Part shown: in pieces, positions 36,073-60,873 of the stretch
Numbering within the stretch: position 1 is the first letter of the stretch
Layout of the letters: each line of letters starts with the position of its first letter
NCBI GenBank assembly: GCA_005809105.1
Contig: SYLI01000021.1
Location: 245 to 64,244 of the forward strand
Source of the DNA: Verrucomicrobiales bacterium
GTDB taxonomy: Bacteria > Verrucomicrobiota > Verrucomicrobiia > Limisphaerales > UBA1100
DNA length: 64,000 bases
Reading direction: 5' to 3'
Program-made: the position numbers and the translations under genes
Notes under the pieces: generated by a model
Databases searched by the model: none
The model's input: only the letters and a program-made list of their open reading frames with translations
What the model was told of the DNA's origin: nothing

Positions 36073-36108
36073 AAAGTGAAATAAAGTGTTGCACTGTGTG
36101 TCGAAGTG
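36073..36108 (+). promoter_or_regulatory. Putative MraZ operator: four direct hexamers at exact 10-bp spacing in an AT-rich region upstream of mraZ
   Basis: AAAGTG (36073-78), AAAGTG (36083-88), ACTGTG (36093-98), GAAGTG (36103-08). The GTG cores sit at 36076/36086/36096/36106. Embedded in the only markedly AT-rich intergenic stretch here (~35990-36125). The last box ends 25 nt before the mraZ ATG. Confidence 0.5.
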
Positions 36109-36132
36109 GGTTAATAGTTCAACCAAGTTGCT

Positions 36133-36597
36133 ATGGCCGTGAAGGGTGCCAATGTGCCTGTTTACTACAATTCGCTCTACCGACATGGGGTGGATGCGAA
36201 GCGTCGTGTACAGATTCCGGCCAAATGGCGGCCTGCCGAGAAGGGTTTTGAATTTACGCTCATCGTCTGGCCCAAATCGGCTCATGGCACCTGCTTGCGA
36301 GTATTGCCGCCCGAACAGATGGCCAAGCTGATGCGCGACATTGACGCGATGAGTAATGACGATCCCAACAAGGTGGTGCTCAAGCGCTTCATCGGCAGCG
36401 AATCGATCCAGGTGGCGCTGGACAGTGCCGGCCGGATTTGCATCCCGGAGGCCATGTCGAAGGCGGCTGGGGTGGAAAATGAAGCCATGCTCGTGGGGTT
36501 GCTGGATCGCTTTGAGGTGTGGTCGCCGGTGAGGTACGAAATGGCATCGAAGGCCGACCGCGGAATGGCCGGCGCCGCCTTCAAGATGATGGAGTAA
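36133..36597 (+). CDS. mraZ: Transcriptional regulator MraZ
   Basis: Two SpoVT/AbrB-like halves with the DxxxR motif (GVDAKRRVQIPAKWR ... ALDSAGRICIPEAM); 154 aa; first gene of the dcw cluster. Confidence 0.9.
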   Translation: MAVKGANVPVYYNSLYRHGVDAKRRVQIPAKWRPAEKGFEFTLIVWPKSAHGTCLRVLPPEQMAKLMRDIDAMSNDDPNKVVLKRFIGSESIQVALDSAGRICIPEAMSKAAGVENEAMLVGLLDRFEVWSPVRYEMASKADRGMAGAAFKMME

Positions 36598-36808
36598 CGC
36601 GGTGCCGTGCGATGTGTGGCCACCATGGAATTTATCAAGACAGAGCCAAGGGGGTGCGCGGTGGCGGGGTCCTTCGGCCCGGCCATTGCGTTCTAGGTAA
36701 TGCCACAGAGGCCGGTTGGTTGATCAGGGTGCCTGCCCTGACAGCCAGCCGGCCTTGGGCAAACTTGCTTTTGGTTGCGCGAGCAGCCGGGGGAGGGGGC
36801 GAATTGTA

Positions 36809-39800
36809 GTGCGTGTATCAACGCAATTAAGGCGGTGGATACGGCGCGCGGCGGCGCTGGTGACCATGGCGCTGGCGTTGGGTGCGCCGCCGGCGCAGGC
36901 CTTCACCCTCATCGGGCCTCCCAACCCGGCCGCGTTTGATTGGGCCACCTACTTCACCTTTGCCGCCCTTCCGGCCGCACCCACGATGCCCGGCGGCGGC
37001 GCCGCGGCTCAGCAGGGTTCGCTTAACTTCGTGGACCCACTGGGTTGGCCGGTGCCGGTGAAGGAGTTCTACCGGTGGAATTTCCCCGAACTCACCTACG
37101 CCTTTGACAGCTCGTTCATCCGTTTCTTTGGCCACCATGGCATGCAGGCGGTGCACAATTCCTTCCGGGTGCTCAATGATTATTTTGAACCGGAGGACGC
37201 GGCGTACGATGGCGTCAGCACCCTGGATTTGCTGCGGCAGTACGACCAGCACTTTTCCACATGGCGCTTTAATCCCTCGGCCAACGTGGGAAACGTGACC
37301 GACATGCAGACCCTCGTCACGGGCCTGCTGGTCAATCACATGGGATTGGGCAATCCCCATCGCTACTGCTACGTCATTCGGGACATCATCAACTACCTCG
37401 CAAACGACACGACTTCGCGGGGCGATTTCCACGTCACCCTGCGAAACTACGACCCCTTCACCTACCACCCCTCGGCCGTCATCAATGGGGTCAATCACAG
37501 CTACTACATCTACTCCAATCCGGCCTACGTCGCTGGCGCGGGCGGCGCGCGCCCAGCCGTGTTCGATGCCGTTGAGTACGCCGTCAGCAGCGACAATGAG
37601 TTTAGCGCCGTTGCGGCCATCCGCGACGTGATCAACTTTGGCGGGTTGCCCTGGCCGCAGGTGGCCCCCACGGTGTTCCGCACGCCCGGCGTCTTCTTTA
37701 CCCCCGAAGACTCGCGCAACAAGCCTGCGATCAATACCACAAGCACCGTGCGGGACCAGCCCAGGCACACGTTGACCTACGACGATGCTGGCGGCCTGCG
37801 CTATCTCTATCGCACCAACAACGTGGTGTTCGAAAGACTCGATGCTTCGGTCACGCTGGTCACCCTGGCAAACATGAACCCCCCGCCGCGCACCACCGGC
37901 ATCCCCCCGGCCGTTCCTCCCAACTCTCCATTTAACACCCCGCAGGTGCGGACCATCACGGGGTTGGTGGCCGCCACCATCACACCCGCCAACAGCGCCA
38001 CGGGCAGTATCCGGCCGCAGGTGACCACCATCGTCCGCGACGGACTGCGCGGTGGCATCAACAAGATCCGATTCAACTACCTTCCCTATGATTCGCTGCT
38101 GGGGAGCGCCTATCACACCAACAACAGTGTCTGGACGGATGTCTTCATCACCAACGCGCTCCCGACGGACATCGTGCCCGCCAATCCCCCATTCTTTAGC
38201 CAGGTGGTGCAGCGCACCACCACCCGGCCCGATATCATCTTCATCGCGCAGGATCTCGGCGTGGCGGGCAACGTGCTGCCGGTGATCCAAATCCCGGACA
38301 CCGCCAACTGGGACAACTCCATGATTGCGAGCAACACCCAGCAGGGCGCCGCTGGACGGTACATGGGGCCGGGCGTGATCCGCCCTCCGGCTGCGACCTC
38401 GATTCAATACATCTTCACCACGCGCGCGCCTTTCCATCAGGTCGTCTGGTCGGGCCAGCAAGGCATCGAGGGGAACATGGTGACTCAATTTCAGTGGGGC
38501 TGGATCACCAACACCGGCCCCAATGACTTCATCCGCTTCCCCGAGGCGGACATCACGCAACCCGAAGGAGTCGTCGCGCCCAGCGGCGTGGTGCCGGAAA
38601 TGACGGCGTTGTCTGTGCTCGACGGCAGCCAGAACATCTTCACTTCGCCTTCCACCAGCTACAACATCGACCGCACCCTGGACACGCTCATCATCTACGG
38701 CCGACGCTTGGACACGGTGAGCCAGATTCGAATTCTGGACCACAACACCACCGTCGCCGGCAAGTATCGGGAACTGCAAGCGATTGACGCCCGGCGGCAC
38801 ATCATGAGCGACCAGCAAATCGTGCTCTCGCCCGGAACGCTCAATGAAAAAACCGTGTCGCCCTCCACAGGCACGTGGTACCGGCGGATCAGCCTTGTCA
38901 ACTCGCGAGGCGAAAGCGTCTCGGAGCTGCTCTACAAGATTCGGGATGGCCGCCCGCTCATCCATGCCACCCAGTACGACGGCTTGCCGCTCAATACCAC
39001 CAAGAGCCTCGTCATCACGGGCAGCGGGTTCAGGACGGCGAACGGCAACGTGAACCAGATCTGGTTCTTCGATGACAACAACGGCACCAACAACGCCCTG
39101 GATCCGGACACGGGCACGGGCGTCTTTCCAATCCCCATCGCCATATTGGACATCAATGCCACCAGCGCGTACGTCGCGCCCAGCGGTGTGGGAGCGAGGA
39201 ACACCGACATCGTCATCACCGACAACTCCATCTATCTGCCTCCCCACATGATCAGCGACGGCCTCTTCATTCCTGGCGGGCTCCCCGCCACGTTTGGCTC
39301 CTTCGGGTTTGGCACCTTGGGACAGGGAAACAACATGGCGCGTAGCGACGGCAACAGCACCGACGTCACCGTCCTGCTCTTTACCAAGCACATTCGGGTG
39401 GCCATCAACAACAGCCTTACCGGTCAGCCCAACGCCAACGTCATCATCAGTCCGGCGCGGCCCACCGTTCAGGGGTTCACGCAAATTGGCGTGGGGGGTG
39501 AACGCAACTCGACCGCGCCGGGAGTGGGCGGCGAGCCCACCTTCCCCATCATCACCGATGTGTTTACCAACGCCACCTTGCCGGGTGCGCCCGTGACGGT
39601 TGCCGATGCCAACCGGACGTGGCTGCGCGGCACCGATGCAGACACGCTCACCATCCGCGGCCGTGGGCTGGACTTGGCCGTCGCCATCGAATTTGTGGAC
39701 GGGCTGGGCAATTCCATCCAATCCACCGATGCCGTCGGCCTGCCGCCGCAGCCCGTCTCGCTGCGGCAAAACGCCAACCCCAGCACGCTGGCGACGGGGG

Positions 39801-40000
39801 TCACCATCGTGCCGCAGGCCGTCGTGGGGTCACGCGACGCCTACGAAATCCGCATCAGTCCGGTGACCTTCGGCATGAATGGCAACGCGCTCTTTGACTC
39901 GGCCGCCAGCACCAATCCCAACCAGCTGCGCCGGGTGGTGATCCGCACGCCTTTCGGGACGGCCATCGCGCCTGTCAGCACGTACCTGATGATTCAGTAG
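36809..40000 (+). CDS. Large secreted protein (~1063 aa from a GTG start) of unknown function; C-terminal half with at least 3 Ig-like (IPT/TIG-like) segments
   Basis: One continuous ORF (track 36716..40000). Proposed GTG start at 36809 is preceded by GGGAGGGGG. Signal peptide RVSTQLRRWIRRAAALVTMALALGAPPAQA|F. Asn/Thr/Pro/Ile-rich composition. IPT-like strings TLIIYGRRLDTVSQIRILD, SLVITGSGFRTANGNVNQIWFFD, TLTIRGRGLDLAVAIEFVD. Ends 12 nt before rsmH. Confidence 0.75.
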   Translation: MRVSTQLRRWIRRAAALVTMALALGAPPAQAFTLIGPPNPAAFDWATYFTFAALPAAPTMPGGGAAAQQGSLNFVDPLGWPVPVKEFYRWNFPELTYAFDSSFIRFFGHHGMQAVHNSFRVLNDYFEPEDAAYDGVSTLDLLRQYDQHFSTWRFNPSANVGNVTDMQTLVTGLLVNHMGLGNPHRYCYVIRDIINYLANDTTSRGDFHVTLRNYDPFTYHPSAVINGVNHSYYIYSNPAYVAGAGGARPAVFDAVEYAVSSDNEFSAVAAIRDVINFGGLPWPQVAPTVFRTPGVFFTPEDSRNKPAINTTSTVRDQPRHTLTYDDAGGLRYLYRTNNVVFERLDASVTLVTLANMNPPPRTTGIPPAVPPNSPFNTPQVRTITGLVAATITPANSATGSIRPQVTTIVRDGLRGGINKIRFNYLPYDSLLGSAYHTNNSVWTDVFITNALPTDIVPANPPFFSQVVQRTTTRPDIIFIAQDLGVAGNVLPVIQIPDTANWDNSMIASNTQQGAAGRYMGPGVIRPPAATSIQYIFTTRAPFHQVVWSGQQGIEGNMVTQFQWGWITNTGPNDFIRFPEADITQPEGVVAPSGVVPEMTALSVLDGSQNIFTSPSTSYNIDRTLDTLIIYGRRLDTVSQIRILDHNTTVAGKYRELQAIDARRHIMSDQQIVLSPGTLNEKTVSPSTGTWYRRISLVNSRGESVSELLYKIRDGRPLIHATQYDGLPLNTTKSLVITGSGFRTANGNVNQIWFFDDNNGTNNALDPDTGTGVFPIPIAILDINATSAYVAPSGVGARNTDIVITDNSIYLPPHMISDGLFIPGGLPATFGSFGFGTLGQGNNMARSDGNSTDVTVLLFTKHIRVAINNSLTGQPNANVIISPARPTVQGFTQIGVGGERNSTAPGVGGEPTFPIITDVFTNATLPGAPVTVADANRTWLRGTDADTLTIRGRGLDLAVAIEFVDGLGNSIQSTDAVGLPPQPVSLRQNANPSTLATGVTIVPQAVVGSRDAYEIRISPVTFGMNGNALFDSAASTNPNQLRRVVIRTPFGTAIAPVSTYLMIQ

Positions 40001-40012: not shown

Positions 40013-40912
40013 TTGCCCGTGTCCAACTTTGCGCACAAACCGGTCCTGCTCGCCGAGGTCCTCGCTACGTTGGGCCCGAGCGAGGGGGGGCGGATGGTGG
40101 ATGGCACGCTTGGCGGGGCGGGCCACGCCGAAGCCATTTTACAGGCCAGCCAATCAGGCTGGCTTGGGGGGTGCGACCGGGACGGGGCGGCGATTGGCGC
40201 TGCCCTGTCCCGACTCAAACCTTATGCCCACCGATGCGACTTGCGCCGAGGCACGTTTGCCGAGCTGCCCGAATGGATCGAGCCGGGAAGCGTGGATGGC
40301 GTGTTGTTGGACTTGGGAGTGAGTTCGCCGCAGTTGGATCACCCCGAACGCGGTTTTAGTTTTCAACATGACGGCCCGTTGGACATGAGAATGGATGATC
40401 GCCAAAACCTGACGGCGGCCGAGGTGGTGAACACAATGGACGAGCCGCGGCTCTCATCGCTGTTTTGGGAATTGGGCGAGGAACGCGAGTCGCGGAAACT
40501 GGCGCGGGGAATCGTGCGCGAGCGCCAGTCGCAACACTTCGCGACTACCGGAGAGCTAGCCAGCCTCATCGAGCGCCTCTCGCCGCGCCGGGGGCGCCGG
40601 CTGCATCCGGCCACGCGCGTATTTCAGGCGCTGCGTATGTATGTGAACGACGAAGTGGGACTGCTTGAGCGCGGCCTGCCCGCGGCTGCGTCTCTCTTGC
40701 GCCCTGGTGGCCGACTGGCGGTGATCACCTTTCATTCGCTGGAAGGCCGGATTGTGAAAGCATTTGGAGACGCCGCGAGCAAGGCGTCGCCTCCGACCTT
40801 GGGCTGGGTGCGCCGCAAGGTGATTCAACCGGGGGACGCCGAACTGGATGAGAATCCGCGGGCCCGAAGCGCTTGCTTGCGAGTGCTTCAAAAGAGCCAG
40901 GGGGAACCATGA
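40013..40912 (+). CDS. rsmH: 16S rRNA (cytosine1402-N4)-methyltransferase
   Basis: HKPVLLAEVL...VDGTLGGAGHAEAIL...LLDLGVSSPQLD...GFSF..DGPLDMRM...ITFHSLE. TTG (40013) or GTG (40019) start. Confidence 0.92.
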   Translation: MPVSNFAHKPVLLAEVLATLGPSEGGRMVDGTLGGAGHAEAILQASQSGWLGGCDRDGAAIGAALSRLKPYAHRCDLRRGTFAELPEWIEPGSVDGVLLDLGVSSPQLDHPERGFSFQHDGPLDMRMDDRQNLTAAEVVNTMDEPRLSSLFWELGEERESRKLARGIVRERQSQHFATTGELASLIERLSPRRGRRLHPATRVFQALRMYVNDEVGLLERGLPAAASLLRPGGRLAVITFHSLEGRIVKAFGDAASKASPPTLGWVRRKVIQPGDAELDENPRARSACLRVLQKSQGEP

Positions 40913-43044
40913 CGCCAAGAGAACTTGTCAACCATGGCCGTAGAGGTGGCCCCCTGCTGGCATTGATCCCGATGGTGGTGGGCGCGGCATTGAGTCCCAT
41001 GGGGCAGGAACACCCACTCATTGGCGACATCGCCGGGCATCAGCAGCGGCCGCAAATGGTGCTGGGAGCCAAGGGCGGTCTCGTCGTCTGGCAGCATGAA
41101 TCGGAGAGCAGCAAGGGCGAACATGTGATGGTGCAGGCGCTCAACGCCGATGGCGTGGGCACGGGAATTCCCATCCGGATGAGCACGGCCACCGACGGGA
41201 GGATGGAACGCCATCCGCGCGGGGCCCTGCTGCCTGATGGCAACGCGGTGGTGGTCTGGGAAGCCGGCACGCGCGCCAATCGCGAAATCTACCTAAGGTT
41301 GCTGGCGCCTAACTTCACCTTTCTCACGCCTGAGGTGAGGGTGAACACCCGACAGGCCGGCAATCAACACATGCCGGCGCTGGCGGTGTTAAACGACGGC
41401 ACCATCGTGGTGCTGTGGCGCAGCGACCTTGCCGATGGCAGCCACGGCGGCGTCATGGGTCAGCTCCTCAATGCTCAGGCAGCCAAGCTGGGAGGGGAGT
41501 TCACCGTGCACCAGAGCGCGCAGTCCAATCAGTCCCAGCCCGCGGTGGCGCCCTTGAAGAATGGCGGATTCGTGGCCGCATGGATTTCGGAAACGGTGAA
41601 CGGCCAGACGCCGGAAGGCGCACCCAACATCAAGGGCAACGTGTTCGGGCGCGTGTTTAACGCACAGGGAGCTCCCGCACCGGACGAAAAGCGACTCAAC
41701 GGGGTGGAGGGCCTTTGCTCCGCTCCCACCCTCGCCGCGATGGAGGAGGGGTTCCTTCTCGCGTGGGTTCAGGTGGATGAAAAGACGATGAGCAATCAGG
41801 AGGACATCTGGGTGAGACGATTTGGTGCCGATGGCACGGCTACCGGCGACGGAGCACGTCACAACAAACTTACCGTCGGCCGACAAAGCGCGCCGACGCT
41901 ATCGGTGAACGGGGCCGATGCGCTGGTGGCATGGCAATGCGAGGTGCGTCAGACCGCCAGCTACGAGGTGCATGGCAGGCTCTTGTCCGGGGGCGCGGAA
42001 TTCCGAATCAACAACCGCGTGCTTTACCACCAACGGCAACCCACCGCAGCGGTTGATGCCGCGGGAAACCATCATGTCGCGTGGGTGGATTCCGTGAGGG
42101 ATCGGCACGCCATCTTGTCGGCACGCAGTTATAGTGGCGCCGCGGACAAGGATGTGACGGCCCTTGCCGATGTCAGTTATGAGGGTGAAGGTGCCGACGG
42201 CGTCATGCTGGCCGGACAGGTTGTGAAGCAAAAGGATCCTGGAGCAGAGGAAATCTCGGCGCGTGCAGCCGTCCAGAGAGAAGCGGCGGAAGGCGCGGCC
42301 GATCAGCAGGCAGCCCAAGCTGCCGCCATCGCACAGGCTGCCGCTGGACGCGCGGCCACGGGTATTCTGATGGGCGTTGCACAGGGCGCGACCGGGGGCA
42401 CGGCAGAGGCGTCGAAATCGCCACTCGCTGGTGCTGTGGCCGGCCAGCGGTTGCCGGGCGACAGTGCGGCACAAACGGCGCTCGCCAGTGCTGCGCGTAA
42501 GGGAGCTGCGATTACCGGAGGCATCGCGCGTCTCAACACTTCACGATCCGCGACGGCGTCGAGCACCGCTTCAAACCTGCGGAATATCGTGGCCCAATCG
42601 CGCGCCAGCGCGGTGGCATTGTCGCCTGCCGTGACGAGGTCGGGATATGTCGATCCCAAGGCGGGATCCGCCACGCCCTCGCGCATTCCCGCGTCTACCA
42701 AAGCAACAACGAGCCGGGCTGAGCCCGCCCGTTCGCAAGCCCGCACCAGTGCGCCCGGTGCGAGCGCGGCGGCAAGGTTAAGCACCGCCCGGGCGGCGGC
42801 CGCCACGAGCTCAGGTGCAGCGCGCGCCGTGCCGGCCGTGCAGGCGTCGCTCGTGGGCTCAGGCAAAAATCTCCAGCTGCAGTGGAACACCGTTTCCGGA
42901 GGCAAGTATCAGGTGCAAGGGTCGCCCGATCAGCGGACTTGGCAAAACGTCGGGGCGGTGCGCACGGGCGCTGGAGCGGCTGATTCGGTGCCGGTGGATG
43001 CAGCGGGCAATCTGAGATTCTTCCGGGTGTCCAAGAACAACTAA
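40909..43044 (+). CDS. Exported 711-aa protein: seven tandem ~50-55-aa beta-propeller-like repeats, ~200-aa Ala/Ser-rich linker, small C-terminal beta-sandwich-like domain (…LQLQWNTVSGGKYQVQ…LRFFRV)
   Basis: The ATG at 40909 overlaps the rsmH TGA (ATGA). N-terminal RRGGPLLALIPMVVGAAL signal/anchor. Repeat consensus Q..P.vA.L.dG..vV.W ... i.GrlF.a.G...g.EF.VN seen 7 times (aa ~43-410). The stop at 43044 lies 1 nt before the ftsL-like GTG. Confidence 0.8.
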   Translation: MTPRELVNHGRRGGPLLALIPMVVGAALSPMGQEHPLIGDIAGHQQRPQMVLGAKGGLVVWQHESESSKGEHVMVQALNADGVGTGIPIRMSTATDGRMERHPRGALLPDGNAVVVWEAGTRANREIYLRLLAPNFTFLTPEVRVNTRQAGNQHMPALAVLNDGTIVVLWRSDLADGSHGGVMGQLLNAQAAKLGGEFTVHQSAQSNQSQPAVAPLKNGGFVAAWISETVNGQTPEGAPNIKGNVFGRVFNAQGAPAPDEKRLNGVEGLCSAPTLAAMEEGFLLAWVQVDEKTMSNQEDIWVRRFGADGTATGDGARHNKLTVGRQSAPTLSVNGADALVAWQCEVRQTASYEVHGRLLSGGAEFRINNRVLYHQRQPTAAVDAAGNHHVAWVDSVRDRHAILSARSYSGAADKDVTALADVSYEGEGADGVMLAGQVVKQKDPGAEEISARAAVQREAAEGAADQQAAQAAAIAQAAAGRAATGILMGVAQGATGGTAEASKSPLAGAVAGQRLPGDSAAQTALASAARKGAAITGGIARLNTSRSATASSTASNLRNIVAQSRASAVALSPAVTRSGYVDPKAGSATPSRIPASTKATTSRAEPARSQARTSAPGASAAARLSTARAAAATSSGAARAVPAVQASLVGSGKNLQLQWNTVSGGKYQVQGSPDQRTWQNVGAVRTGAGAADSVPVDAAGNLRFFRVSKNN

Positions 43045-46769: not shown

Positions 46770-46772
46770 ACC

Positions 46773-48149: not shown

Positions 48150-48176
48150 TCGCCTTGTAGGGCAACCCCGGAAAGG

Positions 48177-49370: not shown

Positions 49371-49374
49371 AACG

Positions 49375-53044: not shown

Positions 53045-54204
53045 TGCCCACCTCACACGCCGCGCCGCGCGTTCACATTGTCTGTGGTGGCACCGGGGGA
53101 CACTTTTTCCCGGGCGTGGCGGTGGCGCGCGAGTTGCAACGGGCGGGCGTCATCGTGACCCTGTTGATTTCAGAAAAGCGAGTCGACCAGCAAGCCGCCC
53201 AGTCACAGGGCGACCTCGAAATATGCGAACTGCCTGCGGTGTCGTGGCAGACACGCGCGCCATGGAGGTTTCTCAATGGGTTGATTCGTTCTCTGAGGAA
53301 GGTGCGAACTCTTCAACTCCACCAACGGCCCGATGCCGTGCTTGCGATGGGCGGATTTACTAGCGTCGCGCCGGTGCTAATGGCGCGGGCGGCCGGGGTT
53401 CCCGTTTTCCTCCACGAATCCAACGCCATTCCCGGCCGCGCCAACCGCTGGCTGGCGCCGTTGGCGCATCAAGTGTTCGTGGGATTTGAAAGCGCACGCC
53501 ATCGATTTCTGCACACGCACGTTGAGGTCACCGGCACGCCCGTCCGCGACGCTTTTTTTACCGCGACGTGCGAAGCCAGCCGCGTGGGGCTAGGGCTGGA
53601 CGCCGGGCGTCCCGTGCTCCTCATCATGGGAGGCAGCCAAGGCGCGCGAGCCATCAACCACCGGGCACTGGCGGTTCTGCCGGCGCTTTTGAAAGCATGG
53701 CCCTCGTTGCAGTTCCTGCACCTGTGCGGCGGAGGCGATGGCGAGGAGGCGCGGGTGCGCGCGGCCTATGAGGCGCAGGGAGCCACGGCACGTGTGCATG
53801 AGTTTCACGCCGACATGCCCTTGGTGTTGGCTGCGGCGGACGTGGCGGTTGGCAGGGCAGGGGCCTCATCGCTGGCGGAACTGGCGGCCGCGCGATTGCC
53901 CTCGGTGCTCATTGCTTTACCCACGGCCGCGGACGACCACCAGCGGTACAACGCGCGAGAATTTGAAAGACGCGGTGCCGCGCGGATGGTTGAACAATCG
54001 GCAGGTCCAGAGGAGCTGGCCCAAGCGCTGTGCCAGTTGCTTGCGAACCGGGCGCCCGTCCGTGCAGCCCTCGCGGGCATGGCGGCACCTCGAGCCGCGG
54101 CACAGGTCGCCGCACACATTCTGTCCTGCGTTCGGCCGCAGCGTTCGGCCAACGCGCCACAAACATGGAACGACCCGACACTTTGGTCCCCCATTACGGC
54201 CTGA
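53041..54204 (+). CDS. murG: UDP-N-acetylglucosamine--N-acetylmuramyl-(pentapeptide) pyrophosphoryl-undecaprenol GlcNAc transferase
   Basis: IVCGGTGGHFFPGVAVARE; GRAGASSLAELAA; ATGA overlap with the ftsW stop. Confidence 0.92.
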   Translation: MMPTSHAAPRVHIVCGGTGGHFFPGVAVARELQRAGVIVTLLISEKRVDQQAAQSQGDLEICELPAVSWQTRAPWRFLNGLIRSLRKVRTLQLHQRPDAVLAMGGFTSVAPVLMARAAGVPVFLHESNAIPGRANRWLAPLAHQVFVGFESARHRFLHTHVEVTGTPVRDAFFTATCEASRVGLGLDAGRPVLLIMGGSQGARAINHRALAVLPALLKAWPSLQFLHLCGGGDGEEARVRAAYEAQGATARVHEFHADMPLVLAAADVAVGRAGASSLAELAAARLPSVLIALPTAADDHQRYNAREFERRGAARMVEQSAGPEELAQALCQLLANRAPVRAALAGMAAPRAAAQVAAHILSCVRPQRSANAPQTWNDPTLWSPITA

Positions 54205-56513
54205 CGACCACCGACCGCGGAGAGCTCGCGCGTTGGATCGAAACGACCGACGCGCCCGTGTACCTGCTGGGCGCGGGAGGCTGCGGCATGAGCGCCTTGG
54301 GACATCTGCTGCTTGACCATGGTCTATGCGTGTGTGGTTCCGACGCGCGTTCGACGGCTGCCCTACGACAGCTCTCCGGGCGCGGCGCGGATTTGCGAGA
54401 AGGACACGAGGCTGCGCATCTGCTGGCACATCGCCCTGGGTTGGTGGTGTATTCTTCGGCCATCCGGCTCGACAATCCCGTGATGATCCAAGCGCAACGC
54501 GCCGGCTTGCGGCTAGCCCGCCGCGCGACCGTGCTCGCCGCACTAATGGAAGGACGCCGTGGTGTGTGTGTGGCCGGCATGCACGGGAAAACCACGACGA
54601 CTGGACTGCTGGCGCACGCCTTACGCGAACTGGGTGCGGATCCTGGATACGCCGTCGGTGGGTTGGTGGCCGAGTGGGATCGCCCGGCGCGCCTGCGCGG
54701 CGGGGATCGTTTCATGGTGGTGGAAGCGGACGAAAGCGACGGCACCCTTCTCGAATTTCGCCCGGAACAGGCACTCATCCTCAATGTGGACGAGGAACAT
54801 CTGGATTACTTCGCCGACCTTGCGGCCGTGTGCCGGGAATTTGAAACCTTCGCTTCGCAGGTGCGCGGGCCGCTCTTCTATTGCGCCGATGATGCGCGTT
54901 TGGTGGCGATGTTCGCGAACCGGCAGGGTGCGATCTCATTTGGCTTCAACTTGGCCGCCCACTATCGCGTAGAGCCGCGCCCGCCTGCCACTGACGGTGC
55001 GGCGCCCTTCGACTTGTGGCACCAGGGCGTATTGCTGGCGACGATCACCCTTAAGCTCGCAGGAGAGCAGAACATGTCTAATGCGGCCGGCGTGGCCGCC
55101 TTCCTGCATCAGAACGGATTTGACGCGCAGCAGATTTCAGCGGCCTTGGGCTCCTTTGGAGGCGCGATGCGCCGCCAGCAAACCCTCTATCGAAGCGCCC
55201 AACTCACCGTGATGGATGACTACGCTCATCATCCTCGCGAGATCGAGGCCACGCTTAAAGCCATGCGCAGCCGGCATCACGGCCGCCTGCTGGTGGCCTT
55301 CCAGCCCCATCGCTACACGCGCACCCAGCATCTTCTCAAGGACTTTGCGCGCTGCTTTTCCGGCGCTGACGCCGTGTGGATCACCGAGGTCTATGCCGCC
55401 AGCGAGCCCGTGATTCCCGAGGTCAACGGCCGGCGCTTGGCCGAGGCCGTGTCCGCGCAGGGGGTTCCGTCTGTCTTTGTGGCGACGCTGGCCCAGTTGC
55501 GCGAGCAAGTGTCCATCGCCATGCGGCCGGGCGACATGGTACTGTTTCTCGGGGCGGGAGACATCACCCAAGCGGCGCACCAACTGGCGATGCAAGCGGC
55601 CTTGAATGAAAGCAGCGTGGCGGCGGCGCTGCGCGGACTACTCTCGCCTGCCTCCGCCCTGCGCGAGCACGAGCCCATGTCCCGGCGCACCACGCTGCAC
55701 GTGGGGGGAGCGGCCGACGTGTTTGTGGAACCGGCATCCGAGGCAGACCTGGCGGCCGCGCTGGCCTGTTGCAATGCCCGCGCCGTGCCGGTGTTCCTGC
55801 TGGGGCGCGGTTCCAATCTGCTGGTGAAAGACGGCGGCATTCGCGGCGTGGTGATCCACCTTGGGGCGCCGGTGTTTTCCGGAATGGATGTGTGCGGCGA
55901 GAGGATTTACTGCGGTGCCGGTGTGCGACTCAAGCATCTGGCCCACGAAGCGCGCAAATGCGGTCTGGCTGGGTTTGAATTTCTGGAAGGCATCCCCGGC
56001 AACCTAGGCGGCGCACTGAGGATGAATGCGGGCGCCATGGGCTCTGAGATATTTGGCTTGGTGGAATCCGTCCGCGTGATGAGCTTGTCCGGAGAGATCG
56101 AGGATCTGACTCGCGATCAGTTGGGAGCGCAATACCGACACTGCCCCGCGCTGAAAGAAAAGGTGGCGCTGGGCGCCGTGCTCCGGGGCAGGGTGGACTC
56201 CCCCGGCGCTGTGGCCGAACGCATGCGATCATTCAGCCAGAAGCGCCACGATTCCCAGCCGGGAGCCAAGAGCGCCGGTTGCATTTTCAAAAACCCTCTT
56301 GAATGTCCCGCCGGCCGGCTTGTGGACGAACTGGGGCTCAAAGGCACGCGTGTGGGGGGGGCCGCCGTGTCCGAGGTGCATGGCAATTTCATCGTCAACG
56401 AGGGGAATGCCACGGCGCAGAATGTGCTCGACCTCATTGCGCTCATTCAGGCAAGTGCCCGTGCCGAGCGCCACATCGAGCTTTGCACCGAAGTGCAGAT
56501 CATCGGTGAGTAG
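54165..56513 (+). CDS. murC: Bifunctional MurC-MurB fusion: UDP-N-acetylmuramate--L-alanine ligase (N-terminal ~470 aa) + UDP-N-acetylenolpyruvoylglucosamine reductase (C-terminal ~300 aa)
   Basis: Start trimmed to the ATG at 54165 (40-nt overlap with murG; later TTG/CTG starts are possible). MurC: GAGGCGMSALG, GMHGKTTTTG, DDYAHHP. MurB from ~nt 55600: RRTTLHVGGAADVFVEP, GRGSNLLV, GIPGNLGGALRMNAGA, SAGCIFKNP. No stop codon between the two halves. Confidence 0.9.
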   Translation: MERPDTLVPHYGLTTTDRGELARWIETTDAPVYLLGAGGCGMSALGHLLLDHGLCVCGSDARSTAALRQLSGRGADLREGHEAAHLLAHRPGLVVYSSAIRLDNPVMIQAQRAGLRLARRATVLAALMEGRRGVCVAGMHGKTTTTGLLAHALRELGADPGYAVGGLVAEWDRPARLRGGDRFMVVEADESDGTLLEFRPEQALILNVDEEHLDYFADLAAVCREFETFASQVRGPLFYCADDARLVAMFANRQGAISFGFNLAAHYRVEPRPPATDGAAPFDLWHQGVLLATITLKLAGEQNMSNAAGVAAFLHQNGFDAQQISAALGSFGGAMRRQQTLYRSAQLTVMDDYAHHPREIEATLKAMRSRHHGRLLVAFQPHRYTRTQHLLKDFARCFSGADAVWITEVYAASEPVIPEVNGRRLAEAVSAQGVPSVFVATLAQLREQVSIAMRPGDMVLFLGAGDITQAAHQLAMQAALNESSVAAALRGLLSPASALREHEPMSRRTTLHVGGAADVFVEPASEADLAAALACCNARAVPVFLLGRGSNLLVKDGGIRGVVIHLGAPVFSGMDVCGERIYCGAGVRLKHLAHEARKCGLAGFEFLEGIPGNLGGALRMNAGAMGSEIFGLVESVRVMSLSGEIEDLTRDQLGAQYRHCPALKEKVALGAVLRGRVDSPGAVAERMRSFSQKRHDSQPGAKSAGCIFKNPLECPAGRLVDELGLKGTRVGGAAVSEVHGNFIVNEGNATAQNVLDLIALIQASARAERHIELCTEVQIIGE

Positions 56514-57524: not shown

Positions 57525-58477
57525 CCATGTGGAACGCCCCGCGCAACCGTCGACGCCACCGCCAGTCGCTGCTGGATGTGAAGCTGAGTTTAGGCGAGAT
57601 CCGGCGCGCGCGTTGGGTGGTTGCATCTCGATTGGGCGGTGTTCTCCTCGGGGCGGCGCTCCTCTTCTTCGGTGTTTGGCGCGGTGGCGAATGGCTCCTG
57701 CAACGGCTCTTTTACAACAATGGCGCGTTCGCCATCCGCACAGTGGACCTTCGCACCGATGGCCGGCTCTCCGAGGCCCAGCTGCACGCCTGGGCGGATG
57801 TGAAACCCGGCGAAAATCTCTTCGGGCTGGATTTGCTGCGCGTCAAACGCAACCTGGAGGCCGTGCCCGCCATCAGCTCGGCTGCCGTGGATCGCGTGTT
57901 GCCCGACACGTTGAGAGTGCGTGTGGTGGAGCGCCGGCCGGTGGCGCAGGTGCTGGTGTACCGGCGCCGCGCCGAGGGGGACTACGTGCGGCTGCTCTAT
58001 CAGATGGACGGTGATGGTTACGTGATGGAACCCTCCCCGGCGCCCGAGCAGCTCTCGCAGGGCGTGTCGTGGCTGCCGCTCTTCACGGGAATCGAACCGG
58101 GCCTGCTGCTGCCCGGACGCGCCGTGCACCAGCCGCAAGTTCACGCCGCGCTCGAACTGCTCCAGCAGTTTGACCGCTCGCCGATGGCCGGCTTGGTGCA
58201 GCTCCAACAGGTGGAGGTGTCCGCGCCGCTCACCCTCATGGTGCGCACCTGGCAGGGTGCCGAGGTCACGCTGGGGCTGACACAACTGGACCGGCAACTG
58301 CGGCGCTGGCGGTTCATCCACGATTACGGACGGGAGCATCGTCGCGTTCCGGCGACCTTGGATCTCTCCATCAAGAACAACCTGCCGGTGCGCTGGCAGG
58401 AACCGGGAAGTCCGCCCGCCCCCGTCCCCGCCAAGGGGCCGGCGCGCGCCGCGGCGCGTCCACGACCCAATGTTTGA
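57521..58477 (+). CDS. ftsQ: Cell division protein FtsQ (TM anchor + POTRA)
   Basis: ATGA overlap with the ddl stop. TM segment LGGVLLGAALLFFGVW. POTRA-like FAIRTVDLRTDGRLSEAQLHAWADVKPGENLFGLDL. Canonical position. Confidence 0.8.
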   Translation: MTMWNAPRNRRRHRQSLLDVKLSLGEIRRARWVVASRLGGVLLGAALLFFGVWRGGEWLLQRLFYNNGAFAIRTVDLRTDGRLSEAQLHAWADVKPGENLFGLDLLRVKRNLEAVPAISSAAVDRVLPDTLRVRVVERRPVAQVLVYRRRAEGDYVRLLYQMDGDGYVMEPSPAPEQLSQGVSWLPLFTGIEPGLLLPGRAVHQPQVHAALELLQQFDRSPMAGLVQLQQVEVSAPLTLMVRTWQGAEVTLGLTQLDRQLRRWRFIHDYGREHRRVPATLDLSIKNNLPVRWQEPGSPPAPVPAKGPARAAARPRPNV

Positions 58478-59693
58478 CGACAAACTCATCGTAGCCGGGC
58501 TCGAGATCGGCACCTCCAAAGTCTGCGTGGTGGTGGGCGAGGCGGCGCCGGGCAGCCCGCTCAACGTCCTCGGTGCCGGCACCGTGCCTTCGCGCGGCGT
58601 GCTTAAAGGTGAAATTGTGAACCCGGGCGCGGCGGGCGAGGATATTCGCCGCGCCGTGGCGGAGGCTGAATCGGTGGCGGATGCCGAGATTGGTAGCGTT
58701 TTCCTCGCCGTCACCGGGGCGCACGTTCACAGCTTCAACCATCACGGGATGCTCCAGATTGCGGCGCCGGCCCACGTCATCGGCGAGGAGGACGTCGAAC
58801 AGGTGATCACCAGCGCCAACGCCGTCAACGTCCCGGCGGACCACACGGTCATCCACACCGTGCGCCAGCATTTCCACGTGGATAACCATGACGGAGTGGT
58901 GTCGCCGGTGGGAATGGCGGGGTCGCGGCTGGAGCTTGATATGCACGTCATTCACGGGCGCAGCCACCGGCTTCAAAACCGGATCAGGCTGGTGCGTGGT
59001 CTGCAGATGGAGGTGGAGGCGGTGGTGTTCAGTGGACGCGCCTCCGCGCTGGCCGTGCTTACTTCCGATCAATGCCAGCAGGGCGCGCTGCTGGTGGATC
59101 TGGGGGCGGGCGTCACGGAGTATGCGCTCTATCTTGGGGGCGTGCCGCGCCACTCGGGCGTGTTGCCCGTGGGCGGCGACCATCTCACCAACGACATCGC
59201 CTTGGGGTTGAAAGTCACCCCCCATCGCGCCGAGCAGCTTCGGCGTGATCACGGTCGGGTGGGGCCGGCTCCCATCCCCGACGGTGGCCCCATCACCCTT
59301 CCCAGTGAAATCGGATTCGTCGCCCGCACTGTCAGCGTGGGTGCGCTCAACCGGATTCTTCATGCGCGGCTCATGGAAATGCTGCAGCTCATCCGTCAGG
59401 ATCTGGCGCGCGCCGGTGTGCTGGGTGCGTTTCAGGGCAGCGTGTACCTGACCGGGGGCGTGGCGCAGACGGCGGGACTGAGCGCATTGGCGGAGCACGT
59501 GTTCCAACTCCCCGCCACGGTCGCTTCCAGCCAGGCCGCCGGAGGCGTGAAAGACATCCTCGATCGGCCCGAGTACAGCACCGCGGTCGGTCTGGTGGAA
59601 TACGGGATGCGTCACATGGCCACCGGTGGCCGGGGCAACCGGCTGGCGGAACTCTTCCGGGGCTGGAAGCGGAGAATCTTTTCCACCACCTGA
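58470..59693 (+). CDS. ftsA: Cell division protein FtsA (actin-like ATPase)
   Basis: IVAGLEIGTSKVCVVVGE phosphate-1 motif; LVDLGAGVTE; GGDHLTNDIA; LTGGVAQTAGL; 8-nt overlap with ftsQ. Confidence 0.92.
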   Translation: MFDDKLIVAGLEIGTSKVCVVVGEAAPGSPLNVLGAGTVPSRGVLKGEIVNPGAAGEDIRRAVAEAESVADAEIGSVFLAVTGAHVHSFNHHGMLQIAAPAHVIGEEDVEQVITSANAVNVPADHTVIHTVRQHFHVDNHDGVVSPVGMAGSRLELDMHVIHGRSHRLQNRIRLVRGLQMEVEAVVFSGRASALAVLTSDQCQQGALLVDLGAGVTEYALYLGGVPRHSGVLPVGGDHLTNDIALGLKVTPHRAEQLRRDHGRVGPAPIPDGGPITLPSEIGFVARTVSVGALNRILHARLMEMLQLIRQDLARAGVLGAFQGSVYLTGGVAQTAGLSALAEHVFQLPATVASSQAAGGVKDILDRPEYSTAVGLVEYGMRHMATGGRGNRLAELFRGWKRRIFSTT

Positions 59694-59697
59694 AATC

Positions 59698-60873
59698 ATG
59701 ATCGACCTTCACAGCCTCTCCGAAGCCACCTTGGCGCCGCCCTTGCCGGTTCGCGTGCTCGTGGTCGGCGTGGGGGGGGGCGGCGGCGTGATGGCCGAAG
59801 AGCTGGCGCAAGCCGGTCACCTCCCGGCAGAATTCCTCGCGGTGGATTCGGACACTCAGGCGTTGCAACGGCATGGTCGCTCGGCGCGGCTGGCGGTGGG
59901 TGGCCGCCTCACGCGCGGGTTGGGTTGCGGTGGTGACGCCGTGCTGGCTCGGCGCTGTGCCGAGTCCAGCCGCAAATCGCTGGCCAAACATTTGGAAGGC
60001 GCGGACGTTGTCGTGCTGCTGGCGGGATTGGGTGGAGGGATGGGAACGGGCGGCTCGAGTGCCATCGCAGAGATGGCGGGTGAATCCGGTGCGCTCACGC
60101 TGGCCATGGTGGCGTTGCCTTTCGATTTTGAGGGGCTGCGTGTCGATCTGGCACGGGCGGGACTGGAAAAGCTTCTGGGGGCCGCCGACAGCGTGATCTG
60201 CTTTCCCAACCAGAGGGTGATTGACCTTCAGAACGAGGAACGCACGGCTCGGGAGACGTTCGCGGCGGCAAACGAGATCATCCATCAGGGTGTGCGGGCG
60301 ACGGCACGCCTTCTGCGCGCCGACGGAATTCTCAATGTAGGATTGGCCGATCTGCGCGCCTCGCTCCGAGGGCAGCGTGCCAGCAGCGTGCTGGCGCATG
60401 TGGAGGCCGAAGGCGAAGCTCGCCACCAGGAGATTTTGAACAAACTACTGGCGCACGCCGCGATGGAGTCGGGACATGCATTGCATACCGCCAGTGCGGT
60501 GGTGGTGAGCCTGGTGGGCGGGCCCGAGCTTTCGGCGACTGAGATTGACCGCCTCTCACGGCAAATCTCGGCTCAGTGTCCCGGAGCGAAAGTGATGTTT
60601 GGAGCCTCGGTGGAGGACGCTTCGAGAGGGCGTCTAGGCCTCACCGTCATTGCCTCGCGCCCGTGGGAGGCACCACGCACGACGGCGTCGCCGGCTTCTG
60701 CAACCAGCTCTTCCGCCGCGGCGCCGCGGCATCGAGCCGCGCAGCGTCACCAACAGCAACTGGCGTTGGAACCCGTCTCCAAGGGACGATTTGAAAAGGC
60801 TGAACGAACGCTGTACCACGGCGAGGATCTGGATGTGCCTGCCTACATCCGCCACAACGTGGTTCTGGACTAG
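59698..60873 (+). CDS. ftsZ: Cell division GTPase FtsZ (sequence-divergent)
   Basis: Start trimmed to the ATG at 59698, 4 nt after ftsA. VVGVGGGGGV, tubulin signature GLGGGMGTGGS, PFDFEG, T7-like NVGLADL, and conserved C-terminal peptide DLDVPAYIRH. Confidence 0.88.
   Translation: MIDLHSLSEATLAPPLPVRVLVVGVGGGGGVMAEELAQAGHLPAEFLAVDSDTQALQRHGRSARLAVGGRLTRGLGCGGDAVLARRCAESSRKSLAKHLEGADVVVLLAGLGGGMGTGGSSAIAEMAGESGALTLAMVALPFDFEGLRVDLARAGLEKLLGAADSVICFPNQRVIDLQNEERTARETFAAANEIIHQGVRATARLLRADGILNVGLADLRASLRGQRASSVLAHVEAEGEARHQEILNKLLAHAAMESGHALHTASAVVVSLVGGPELSATEIDRLSRQISAQCPGAKVMFGASVEDASRGRLGLTVIASRPWEAPRTTASPASATSSSAAAPRHRAAQRHQQQLALEPVSKGRFEKAERTLYHGEDLDVPAYIRHNVVLD

What the first reader, a model, noticed from the sequence alone, without database searches (positions are those of the whole stretch)
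36073..60873. Complete dcw cluster with three extra extracytoplasmic-protein genes wedged into it: candidate lineage-specific periplasmic divisome/peptidoglycan module
Gene order read from the sequence: mraZ - [1063-aa secreted Ig-like protein] - rsmH - [711-aa 7-repeat propeller-like protein] - ftsL - ftsI - murE - murF - mraY - murD - [TM + 2xLysM protein] - ftsW - murG - murC::murB - ddl - ftsQ - ftsA - ftsZ.

The junctions are extremely tight:
- big protein to rsmH: 12-nt gap
- rsmH/propeller: ATGA overlap
- propeller to ftsL: 1-nt gap
- ftsL/ftsI: TGATG overlap
- ftsI to murE: 2 nt; murE to murF: 3 nt
- ftsW/murG: ATGA overlap
- murG/murC: overlap
- ddl/ftsQ: ATGA overlap
- ftsQ/ftsA: 8-nt overlap
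- ftsA to ftsZ: 4 nt

In canonical dcw clusters, mraZ-rsmH-ftsL-ftsI and murD-ftsW are contiguous. Here all three extra genes encode proteins with a signal peptide or membrane anchor, so they act in the same compartment as FtsL/FtsI/FtsW/FtsQ. None matches a divisome component I recognise. PVC bacteria are known for remodelled division machinery, so co-transcribed envelope proteins inside the cluster are strong candidates for undescribed division or septal-PG factors.
Basis: partly seen in the sequence, partly recalled or inferred. Interest (0 to 1): 0.8.

Follow-up and report, generated by a model that had tools for sequence, protein, structure and literature searches.

The report
Verrucomicrobial division operon with three extras
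A complete cell-division/cell-wall operon of a Pedosphaera-like verrucomicrobium carries three real, conserved extra envelope genes: a wall-binding LysM protein found at the same spot in distantly related Verrucomicrobiota, and a pair of secreted proteins copied from a pilus/secretin operon. All three are candidates for a division role, but none is shown to have one.

Summary
Window 36133-60873 is a complete, tightly packed dcw operon with three extra genes at the stated junctions.

The "one lineage-specific periplasmic module" reading is only partly right. The three inserts have three different ages and two different origins.

- **INS3 (murD|ftsW).** It has an N-terminal anchor, an invariant lipobox-like Cys and two LysM domains. 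It sits at exactly this junction in all 9 distinct clusters that reach it, including lineages whose FtsI is only 35-48% identical (one is an Opitutaceae MAG). It is the best candidate for a wall or division factor, but it is not specific to this lineage.
- **INS1 (mraZ|rsmH) and INS2 (rsmH|ftsL).** INS1 is a secreted 1063-aa protein with a novel N-domain and Ig/IPT domains. INS2 is a 7-bladed beta-propeller with a linker and a small beta-sandwich. Each forms a single clade of dcw-resident copies. INS1 is in about two dozen related dcw loci; INS2 is in only one of the two subclades.
- **Origin of the pair.** Their relatives are an adjacent gene pair. That pair lies downstream of PilM-Amuc_1100-TPR/secretin operons in every case where enough flank was available. 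The N-domain family has at least 806 clusters and no Pfam model.

So the dcw copy is a captured, specialised duplicate of a secretin-linked extracytoplasmic pair. Function remains inferred.

The parts
36074..36108 (+). Four (A/T)GTG(G) repeats at 10-nt spacing just upstream of mraZ, inside a conserved TTGACC...ATAAAGTGT block. Likely the Pmra promoter with the MraZ operator.
   Evidence: The pattern occurs once in the window, against 0 expected. The block is conserved upstream of mraZ in L001, L003, L005, L010 and L011. The MraZ-operator assignment is inferred from what is known in E. coli.
36133..36597 (+). mraZ
   Evidence: Pfam MraZ, E 1.9e-13.
36656..36691 (+). Conserved 16-bp hairpin in the mraZ-INS1 spacer. 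A conserved GCCAAGGGGG motif begins at 36645.
   Evidence: 8 of 16 pairs show compensatory changes across 7 distinct sequences. 94.6% of cells are paired, against 33-54% in the slid controls. Function unknown.
36809..40000 (+). INS1: secreted 1063-aa protein. Signal peptide (residues 1-31), novel conserved N-terminal region (residues about 72-590, window 37022-38578), then tandem Ig/IPT-like domains (residues about 597-1063, window 38597-39997).
   Evidence: No Pfam, NCBIfam or PDB sequence hit. AF2 pLDDT 79.7, pTM 0.81. Foldseek matches only Ig/IPT/FnIII arrays. 84 homologue clusters. The dcw copies form a single clade.
40013..40912 (+). rsmH (mraW)
   Evidence: Pfam Methyltransf_5, E 5.7e-96.
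40909..43044 (+). INS2: 711-aa protein. N-terminal hydrophobic signal or anchor, 7-bladed beta-propeller (residues 28-410, window 40990-42138), Ala/Ser-rich disordered linker (residues 423-640), and a C-terminal ~65-aa beta-sandwich (residues 645-711, window 42841-43041).
   Evidence: AF2. Foldseek best matches are 7-bladed propeller CAZymes at about 10% identity. The C-terminal domain gives a weak profile hit to a discoidin domain, E 0.004. The dcw copies form a single clade.
43046..43390 (+). ftsL
   Evidence: Weak DivIC/FtsL hits. 35-77% identical to the gene at the same position in relatives.
43390..45276 (+). ftsI
   Evidence: Pfam PBP_dimer + Transpeptidase.
45279..50802 (+). murE (45279-46769), murF (46773-48149), mraY (48177-49370), murD (49375-50802)
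   Evidence: Pfam.
50918..51820 (+). INS3: 300-aa LysM protein. Conserved translated N-terminal peptide (M-x-x-P-N-P...G, basic), a ~21-aa hydrophobic segment ending in invariant [A/G]-Cys47 (51056-51058), a Pro/Gly/Ala-rich linker, LysM1 (51392-51526) and LysM2 (51611-51739).
   Evidence: Pfam LysM, E 3.7e-29, two domains. Alignment A3. Shine-Dalgarno sequence and synonymous changes in the N-terminal extension. Same junction in all 9 distinct clusters that reach it.
51911..54204 (+). ftsW (51911-53044), murG (53041-54204)
   Evidence: Pfam.
54030..56513 (+). murC-murB fusion. The ORF opens at 54030; the likely start overlaps the end of murG.
   Evidence: Pfam Mur_ligase / _M / _C plus FAD_binding_4 / MurB_C in one ORF. 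This fusion is known for Verrucomicrobia (PMC4803751).
56607..60873 (+). ddl (56607-57524), ftsQ (57521-58477), ftsA (58470-59693), ftsZ (59698-60873)
   Evidence: Pfam.

Best explanation
The region is the complete dcw operon of a Pedosphaera-like verrucomicrobium. It is probably transcribed from a conserved promoter/MraZ-operator block upstream of mraZ. It carries three genuine extra genes, acquired at three different times.

**(1) INS3, between murD and ftsW.** This is an N-terminally anchored LysM x2 protein; a lipobox-like invariant Cys suggests a lipoprotein. It is a fixture of dcw clusters in distantly related Verrucomicrobiota.
- Most likely mechanism (inferred): it is tethered to a membrane on the periplasmic side and binds glycan strands through its LysM domains.
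- It would then act beside FtsW/FtsI as a wall-binding scaffold or tether. This resembles FtsN, or the LysM part of NlpD/DipM, in layout only. It has no SPOR and no LytM domain.

**(2) INS1 and INS2, on either side of rsmH.** These are a specialised duplicate of a two-gene module made of a beta-propeller protein and an 'N-domain' protein.
- In other loci the two genes are adjacent. Wherever enough flank is available, they lie just downstream of the PilM-Amuc_1100-x-TPR/secretin (PilQ-type) operon.
- The duplicate was captured in the common ancestor of this order-level clade. INS1 carries about 470 residues of Ig/IPT-like domains that the ~511-aa operon forms lack.
- INS2 was either added in one subclade or lost in the other.
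- Most likely mechanism (inferred): both are Sec-exported and form an extracytoplasmic complex at the envelope or cell surface. Their synthesis is coupled to growth and division through the dcw promoter.
- A direct role in septal peptidoglycan synthesis is possible but has no positive evidence.
For: **Shown**
- Gene content, order and junctions.
- INS1 at mraZ|rsmH in every related dcw locus examined, and INS3 at murD|ftsW in every locus that reaches it.
- Distant INS3 homologues (29-45% identity) lie exactly between murD and ftsW in clusters whose FtsI is 48%, 35% and 39% identical to the window's. One of these is an Opitutaceae MAG.
- Invariant [A/G]-Cys after the hydrophobic segment, and classic short lipoprotein signals in some members.
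- The N-terminal extension of INS3 is translated.
- The dcw copies of INS1 and of INS2 each form one clade in NJ trees.
- 22 of the 24 non-dcw INS2-like genes in the tree lie next to an INS1-like gene.
- A conserved operon, PilM-Amuc_1100-X270-TPR/secretin-INS2like-INS1Nlike-X1000, appears in L006, L007, L099 and L100. It appears partially in L050, L073, L079/L080 and L094.
- A ~514-aa N-domain protein on the short contig L098 is again preceded by an INS2-like gene.
- The N-domain family has 806 clusters at E<=1e-3.
- One MAG carries both a dcw copy and a paralogue.
- Against the closest relative, INS1 is 75% identical (C-terminal residues 450-1063 only, because that contig is cut), INS2 62% and INS3 66%. 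The Mur enzymes are 65-73% identical.
- No terminator-like sites in the intergenic gaps of 35800-52000. The upstream promoter/operator block is conserved.

**Literature**
- Amuc_1098 is an abundant outer-membrane TPR+secretin PilQ (PMC4960237).
- LysM genes are drawn in verrucomicrobial murB/C neighbourhoods (PMC4803751).
- VSP_RS19445 is scored essential in V. spinosum. Its locus tag falls between mraY and murG, and it was not found in the ortholog tables (PMC12283558).
Against: - No experiment, and no transcript or localisation data.
- INS1 and INS2 have no recognisable PG-binding, divisome or enzymatic domain.
- INS2 is dispensable in a whole subclade (L003, L009, L010, L011, L029).
- Paralogues in non-division contexts show that the fold family is not intrinsically a division factor.
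- Whether INS3 is cleaved and lipidated is unknown. Its conserved cytoplasmic N-terminal motif argues that the N-terminus is retained or has its own role.
- The identity of VSP_RS19445 as the INS3 orthologue is inferred from locus-tag order only.
- Physical interaction between INS1 and INS2 is inferred from gene adjacency only.
- The trees are simple NJ trees on partial domains, without support values.
Confidence: 0.6

Rival explanations
1. One reading: all three inserts together form a dedicated periplasmic divisome / septal-peptidoglycan module that acts with FtsL/FtsI/FtsW/FtsQ.
For: - Tight translational coupling of INS1 and INS2 to rsmH and ftsL.
- Stable junction positions down to 40% (INS1) and 29% (INS3) identity.
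- The dcw copies are distinct clades, so they are specialised paralogues rather than random passengers.
- INS1 is conserved about as well as the Mur enzymes against the closest relative.
Against: - The three genes have three different phyletic distributions: INS3 is broader than INS1, which is broader than INS2.
- INS2 is absent from a whole subclade that keeps the rest of the cluster.
- INS1 and INS2 descend from a secretin-operon pair and have no PG-related domain.
Confidence: 0.2
2. INS1 and INS2 are passengers. They are surface, adhesin or pilus-associated proteins that merely use the strong, growth-coupled dcw promoter. Only INS3 has a wall function.
For: - Relatives are consistently linked to PilM-Amuc_1100-secretin operons, or to polysaccharide genes.
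- The domain make-up is typical of surface proteins: Ig/IPT arrays, a beta-propeller, and a CBM-like beta-sandwich.
- INS2 has been lost, or was never gained, in a subclade.
Against: - The position of INS1 has been fixed for a long time, across lineages with 40% identity.
- Overlapping stop/start codons with rsmH and ftsL suggest selected co-expression, not mere tolerance.
Confidence: 0.3
3. INS3 is an outer-membrane lipoprotein that tethers the outer membrane to peptidoglycan (Pal/Lpp-like). INS2 is its periplasmic beta-propeller partner (TolB-like). Together they would be an analogue of Tol-Pal for outer-membrane constriction.
For: - Lipobox-like Cys, with no Asp at position +2 in the alignment.
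- PG-binding LysM domains.
- A beta-propeller protein in the same operon.
- The resemblance to Tol-Pal rests on prior knowledge, not on a test here.
Against: - No sequence or profile similarity to TolB or Pal.
- INS2 is absent from most lineages that have INS3.
- INS2's conserved partner is INS1-like, not INS3.
Confidence: 0.08
4. The extra ORFs are artefacts or recent mobile insertions.
For: GC content is slightly lower (0.60-0.63) and GC skew is negative across INS1.
Against: - Dozens of independent assemblies carry intact orthologues at the same junctions.
- The structure predictions are confident.
- No homologue of a mobility gene was seen next to any dcw copy in the tblastn and called-gene tables.
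Confidence: 0.01

Closest known systems
Canonical dcw cluster, in its verrucomicrobial form with fused murB/C (PMC4803751; PMC12283558; Pilhofer 2008, cited from memory, not readable here)
   Same: The same 16 gene products in the canonical order, with murC and murB fused into one ORF. Overlapping or near-touching genes. mraZ comes first, behind a conserved promoter/operator block.
   Different: Three additional genes at mraZ|rsmH, rsmH|ftsL and murD|ftsW. A conserved hairpin lies in the mraZ-INS1 spacer.
FtsN (bitopic, SPOR domain) and the LysM+LytM division proteins NlpD, DipM and ActS
   Same: INS3 has the same general layout: a short basic N-terminus, a membrane anchor or lipobox, a long Pro-rich linker, and C-terminal PG-binding domains. 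It is encoded among the septal PG synthesis genes.
   Different: No SPOR domain and no LytM/M23 domain. NCBIfam hits to DipM, NlpD and ActS cover the LysM domains only and score far below the curated cut-offs.
YneA of Bacillus (TM + single LysM; SOS division inhibitor)
   Same: The same minimal architecture of a membrane anchor plus LysM. There is a weak NCBIfam hit (32.7 bits against a cut-off of 60).
   Different: INS3 is three times longer and has two LysM domains. It is constitutively placed in the dcw operon and conserved across distantly related Verrucomicrobiota. Nothing suggests an inhibitor role.
Amuc_1100 / PilQ (Amuc_1098) type IV pilus-like gene cluster of Akkermansia and other Verrucomicrobiota (PMC4960237)
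   Same: Relatives of INS2 and INS1 are the two genes directly downstream of PilM-Amuc_1100-x-TPR/secretin in L006, L007, L099 and L100. They follow a secretin gene in L050, L073, L079/L080 and L094.
   Different: The window's copies sit in the dcw operon, split by rsmH. INS1 has extra Ig/IPT domains. The papers I could search do not describe these downstream genes.
Periplasmic or pilus beta-propeller proteins TolB and PilY1
   Same: INS2 is an exported beta-propeller protein, encoded next to division genes (like tolB functionally) or next to pilus genes (like pilY1).
   Different: No sequence, profile or top-50 Foldseek match to either. INS2 has 7 blades built from an RTX-protein-type repeat, plus a long disordered linker and a beta-sandwich.

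Membership tests
dcw (division and cell wall) cluster | [quoted passage not shown] | tested here: met
   Pfam assignments and coordinates. FtsL is called by position and weak hits only.
LysM domain proteins (PF01476) | One or more LysM domains above the Pfam gathering score | tested here: met
   INS3 scores 100.8 bits against a cut-off of 20.9, with two domains.
NlpD / DipM / ActS (LysM + LytM division factors) | C-terminal LytM (Peptidase_M23) domain | tested here: not met
   No M23 hit in Pfam. NCBIfam DipM, NlpD and ActS hits cover the LysM domains only and are far below cut-off.
FtsN | C-terminal SPOR domain on a bitopic membrane protein | tested here: not met
   No SPOR hit in Pfam or NCBIfam. 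Only the overall layout is similar.
Bacterial lipoproteins | Signal peptide ending in a lipobox, [LVI][ASTVI][GAS]-Cys | tested here: inconclusive
   Cys preceded by A or G is invariant in 18/18 homologues, and some have classic short signals such as ...LTLSAC. In the window the box is F-N-A-C, after a 24-aa conserved n-region. No dedicated predictor was available.
Beta-propeller fold | Six to eight four-stranded blades arranged around an axis | tested here: met
   AF2 pLDDT is about 90 over residues 28-410. Seven sequence repeats. Foldseek E about 1e-9 to 7-bladed PL42, GH145 and PL24/25 propellers, TM up to 0.65.
TolB | TolB N-terminal domain plus a PD40-type 6-bladed propeller | tested here: not met
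   No Pfam or NCBIfam hit. Not among the top Foldseek matches.
PilY1 / PilC pilus tip adhesins | PilY1-type C-terminal propeller (Pfam Neisseria_PilC) | tested here: not met
   No Pfam hit. Not in the top 50 Foldseek matches.
Secretin-operon accessory pair (unnamed family defined here: INS2-like propeller + INS1 N-domain protein) | Homologous propeller gene and N-domain gene, adjacent, downstream of PilM-Amuc_1100-TPR/secretin | tested here: inconclusive
   Homology is met: INS1 N-domain E 1e-24 to 1e-33, and INS2 E 1e-37 to 1e-51, against the operon copies. Context is not met for the window's copies, which sit in dcw and are split by rsmH. They form a separate clade.
Ig-like / IPT-TIG domain surface proteins | Tandem Ig-like beta-sandwich domains | tested here: met
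   Foldseek matches to plexin IPT3-6 and to other tandem Ig/FnIII arrays for the C-terminal half of the INS1 model. No Pfam model reaches threshold.

The most novel reading that the evidence does not exclude
Verrucomicrobiota lack a described FtsN/Tol-Pal-type late-division apparatus. They may use instead a dcw-encoded LysM lipoprotein (INS3, possibly the essential VSP_RS19445 of V. spinosum). In Pedosphaera-like lineages there would also be an envelope complex (INS1 + INS2) recruited from the accessory proteins of the pilus/secretin machine.

Together these would form a new kind of extracytoplasmic division module linking septal PG synthesis to the outer layers. One sub-hypothesis rests on the report that verrucomicrobial PG is de-N-acetylated (PMC12283558). 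In that case the LysM domains could mark only nascent, still-acetylated glycan at the septum.
Probability: 0.12. Interest if true: 0.85.

Novelty: new variant of a known kind. Interest (0 to 1): 0.55.

Why it matters
[quoted passage not shown] Verrucomicrobiota are now being developed as the FtsZ-using reference for it (PMC12283558). Three points follow.

- **A concrete candidate for a missing divisome or wall factor.** A LysM protein fixed between murD and ftsW in distantly related Verrucomicrobiota is such a candidate. It may correspond to an unassigned essential gene in the V. spinosum cluster, and it can be tested directly in V. spinosum or Akkermansia.
- **A rare case of operon growth.** The INS1/INS2 result shows a highly constrained operon acquiring genes by duplication from a pilus/secretin operon.
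- **A large, unnamed family.** The analysis defines a two-gene family with at least 806 50%-identity clusters and no Pfam model. It accompanies the medically studied Amuc_1100/PilQ cluster type.

All functional statements remain genomic inference.

Tried and rejected
**Searches that gave nothing useful**
- Pfam, NCBIfam and PDB sequence/profile searches for INS1 (full length and N-domain alone): nothing. The single PDB hit, a kinase at E 0.0025, is a chance match.
- Foldseek of the whole INS1 model reports only the Ig-like half.

**Ideas I could not test or that failed**
- I noted from memory that INS1's 'L-T-x-D-D-A-G-G-L-x-Y-L-Y' resembles the C-terminal helix motif of matrixin-type metalloproteases. 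There is no HExxH motif and no profile support. It is an untested lead, not a claim.
- The ~1000-aa gene downstream of the secretin-operon pair is not related to INS1.
- X509, the upstream partner of the type-B paralogues, is not related to INS2.
- The small ORFs called between mraZ and rsmH in INS1-less lineages (263, 75 and 134 aa) are unrelated to INS1 and to each other. They may not be genes.
- A small ORF overlapping the spacer hairpin was rejected, because the reading frame is not conserved between the window and L005.

**Tool and access limits**
- The genome-contig scan with FtsI returned only four related loci, so breadth had to come from the protein searches and the metagenome scan.
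- Pilhofer 2008 could not be read.
- No paper combines LysM + murD + ftsW + dcw.
- Rfam and tRNA scans of the window were empty.

Full report
**1. The observation**

The ORF map and the Pfam scans confirm a complete dcw cluster on the + strand, from mraZ (36133-36597) to ftsZ (ends 60873). It includes a single ORF that fuses MurC and MurB domains.

Three further ORFs sit inside the cluster:
- INS1, 36809-40000
- INS2, 40909-43044
- INS3, 50918-51820

- a 12-nt gap from INS1 to rsmH
- an ATGA overlap at rsmH/INS2
- a 1-nt gap from INS2 to ftsL
- a TGATG overlap at ftsL/ftsI

The wider gaps are mraZ to INS1 (211 nt), murD to INS3 (115 nt) and INS3 to ftsW (90 nt). In the scanned stretch 35800-52000, none of the gaps contains a terminator-like site, and the region has fewer such sites than shuffled sequence.

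Upstream of mraZ lies a block with a TTGACC hexamer and four (A/T)GTG(G) repeats at 10-nt spacing (36074-36108; 0 expected by chance). The block is conserved in relatives. By analogy with E. coli, it probably holds the operon promoter and the MraZ operator; this is an inference.

The closest genome match is a Pedosphaera sp. MAG from Lake Baikal, with FtsI 82% identical. The rest of the window carries typical PVC families such as PSCyt1/PSCyt2/PSD1 and DUF1501.

**2. INS3, the LysM protein**

Pfam finds two LysM domains and nothing else. NCBIfam gives only LysM-level hits to DipM, NlpD, ActS and YneA, all far below their cut-offs. INS3 therefore belongs to none of those families.

The alignment of 18 homologues shows four features:
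- a conserved N-terminal peptide (M-x-x-P-N-P...G, then basic residues)
- a ~21-residue hydrophobic segment
- an invariant Cys always preceded by Ala or Gly
- a Pro/Gly/Ala-rich linker of variable length, followed by two or three LysM domains

Some members have a textbook lipoprotein signal (MSDRPRLVLVLSLLVLLTLTLSAC). The N-terminal extension is translated. A Shine-Dalgarno sequence precedes the first ATG, and relatives differ by synonymous changes while keeping P-N-P. INS3 is thus an N-terminally anchored periplasmic LysM protein and probably a lipoprotein. Why its cytoplasmic-side n-region is conserved is unexplained.

Its position is remarkably stable. It lies between murD and ftsW in every Pedosphaera-like cluster that reaches that junction (L003, L005, L008, L009, L010, L011). 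It is also there in three distant clusters (L015, L016, L017). FtsI in those three is only 48%, 35% and 39% identical to the window's. One of them is an Opitutaceae MAG.

The literature adds two points:
- A 2016 paper on the MurB/C fusion marks 'LysM-containing protein coding genes' in its figure of verrucomicrobial murB/C neighbourhoods, without comment (PMC4803751).
- In the V. spinosum TraDIS study, locus tag VSP_RS19445 falls between mraY (RS19455) and murG (RS19435), beside the re-tagged murD and ftsW. It is scored essential, and my search did not find it in the ortholog tables with E. coli or P. limnophila.

RS19445 may be the INS3 orthologue, but I could not retrieve the sequence to check.

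**3. INS1 and INS2**

*INS1.* It has a Sec signal peptide (RR...AQA|F). Its model is confident (pLDDT 79.7, pTM 0.81). The C-terminal half is a string of Ig/IPT-like domains, with plexin IPT and other Ig/FnIII arrays as the best Foldseek matches. The N-terminal ~520 residues match nothing in Pfam, NCBIfam or PDB sequences. This region contains many invariant Asp, Asn, His, Arg and Glu residues. They may mark a binding or catalytic site; this is an inference.

*INS2.* It has four parts:
- an N-terminal hydrophobic segment
- a confident beta-propeller (residues 28-410, seven repeats)
- a ~220-residue Ala/Ser-rich disordered linker
- a ~65-residue beta-sandwich

The propeller matches 7-bladed carbohydrate-active enzymes, but only at the level of the general fold (about 10% identity). 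Its repeat also occurs in RTX-type proteins. The beta-sandwich has a weak profile match to a discoidin domain.

**4. Where the relatives of INS1 and INS2 live**

INS1 homologues fall into three contexts:
- Type A: mraZ-INS1-rsmH, about two dozen loci, at least 40% identical.
- Type B: an unrelated 509-aa gene, then INS1-like, beside polysaccharide genes and sometimes ftsK.
- Type C: INS2-like, then INS1-like. This pair lies behind a secretin gene in every type-C locus with enough upstream flank.

NJ trees place all dcw INS1 copies in one clade, sister to types B and C. All dcw INS2 copies likewise form one clade. The deepest split within the dcw INS1 clade separates an INS2-less group (L003, L009, L010, L011, L029) from the INS2-bearing rest. 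INS2 was therefore gained or lost once.

Of the 24 non-dcw INS2-like genes in the tree, 22 lie next to an INS1-like gene.

An exhaustive search with the INS1 N-domain finds 806 clusters at 50% identity. Most are ~450-520-aa proteins without any Pfam domain. I could look up three of them:
- Two lie in the operon PilM-Amuc_1100-X270-TPR/secretin-[INS2-like]-[N-domain protein]-[~1000-aa protein] (L099 and L100). This is the same arrangement as in L006 and L007.
- The third lies on a short contig and is again preceded by an INS2-like gene.

The TPR+secretin gene has the architecture of Akkermansia PilQ/Amuc_1098, the most abundant outer-membrane protein of that organism (PMC4960237). One marine MAG carries both a dcw copy and a type-B paralogue.

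**5. Interpretation**

The three inserts are real and conserved, but they are not one module. INS3 is old and broad, INS1 is younger, and INS2 is younger still or has been lost in part of the clade.

INS3 is the credible wall or division candidate. It has PG-binding domains and a membrane tether, it keeps a fixed place beside ftsW, and it may be essential in V. spinosum. It resembles FtsN and NlpD/DipM in layout but fails their defining features, having no SPOR and no LytM domain.

INS1 and INS2 are a specialised duplicate of a secretin-operon gene pair. Adjacency in many divergent loci argues that the two proteins work together. Their domains look like those of envelope or surface proteins.

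Their long residence in the dcw operon, with overlapping stop/start codons, argues for selected co-expression with division genes. So does conservation comparable to the Mur enzymes against the closest relative. None of this shows a division function.

I put about 0.6 on the overall account. That confidence is high for the anatomy and evolutionary origin, and low for mechanism.

**6. Novelty and score**

The dcw cluster and the murB/C fusion are known. LysM genes in these neighbourhoods have been drawn but never analysed. I found no description of the INS1/INS2 family, of its link to the Amuc_1100/PilQ operon, or of its capture into dcw.

This is a new variant of a known kind, with testable candidates. 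Interest is 0.55.

Noticed in passing
window 36645-36700 (hairpin 36656-36691), mraZ-INS1 spacer: A conserved GCCAAGGGGG motif is followed by a 16-bp hairpin with strong covariation. 8 of 16 pairs show compensatory changes across 7 distinct sequences, and 94.6% of cells are paired against 33-54% in the slid controls. It is present in many INS1-bearing lineages. It is absent from INS1-less clusters (L015-L017) and from some INS1 loci. There is no T-run after it, and no Rfam match. It may be an attenuator, a processing site or a protein-binding site controlling expression downstream of mraZ.
   Followed up: partly
window 36074-36108 and the conserved block 36040-36130: Four (A/T)GTG(G) repeats with 10-nt periodicity lie next to a TTGACC hexamer just upstream of mraZ. 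The block is conserved in relatives. It is a candidate MraZ operator and dcw promoter.
   Followed up: partly
L006, L007, L099, L100 (loci; e.g. L099 1496-14607): A conserved seven-gene operon: PilM(FtsA-like)-Amuc_1100-X270-TPR/secretin-propeller protein-N-domain protein-~1000-aa protein. In three of the four loci (L006, L007, L100) it is followed by a giant DUF5122/Calx-beta protein. The last three operon genes have no Pfam family. The N-domain family alone has at least 806 clusters at 50% identity.
   Followed up: partly
L001 16305-16835 (and L002): In one lineage an extra 176-aa ORF lies between INS2 and ftsL. It consists of two copies of INS2's C-terminal beta-sandwich domain (tblastn 42-48% identity), with weak discoidin / galactose-binding hits.
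   Followed up: no
L004 / L051 and about 18 metagenome loci (type B): A third INS1 paralogue subfamily (~1250 aa) is always preceded by an unrelated 509-aa protein without a Pfam family. It is followed, on the opposite strand, by a polysaccharide biosynthesis gene. In L004 and L051 ftsK lies just upstream.
   Followed up: no
window 16988-23114: A PSCyt1/PSCyt2/PSD1 gene (18463-21570, - strand) is flanked by two DUF1501 genes (16988-18835, - strand; 21510-23114, + strand). This is the typical planctomycete/verrucomicrobial gene set of unknown function.
   Followed up: no
window 15456-16928 (- strand): A BamB-like PQQ_2 beta-propeller protein that also carries EF-hand motifs.
   Followed up: no
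window 11666-13102 (- strand): An N6/N4 DNA methylase (12392-13102) lies next to a 240-aa ORF without a Pfam hit. This may be a restriction-modification pair.
   Followed up: no
PMC12283558 Data S5 (V. spinosum): VSP_RS19445 is scored essential and was not found in the ortholog tables with E. coli or P. limnophila. Its locus tag falls between mraY and murG in the mraW cluster. VSP_RS19495, near mraW, is also scored essential. The identities of both are not given in the paper.
   Followed up: partly
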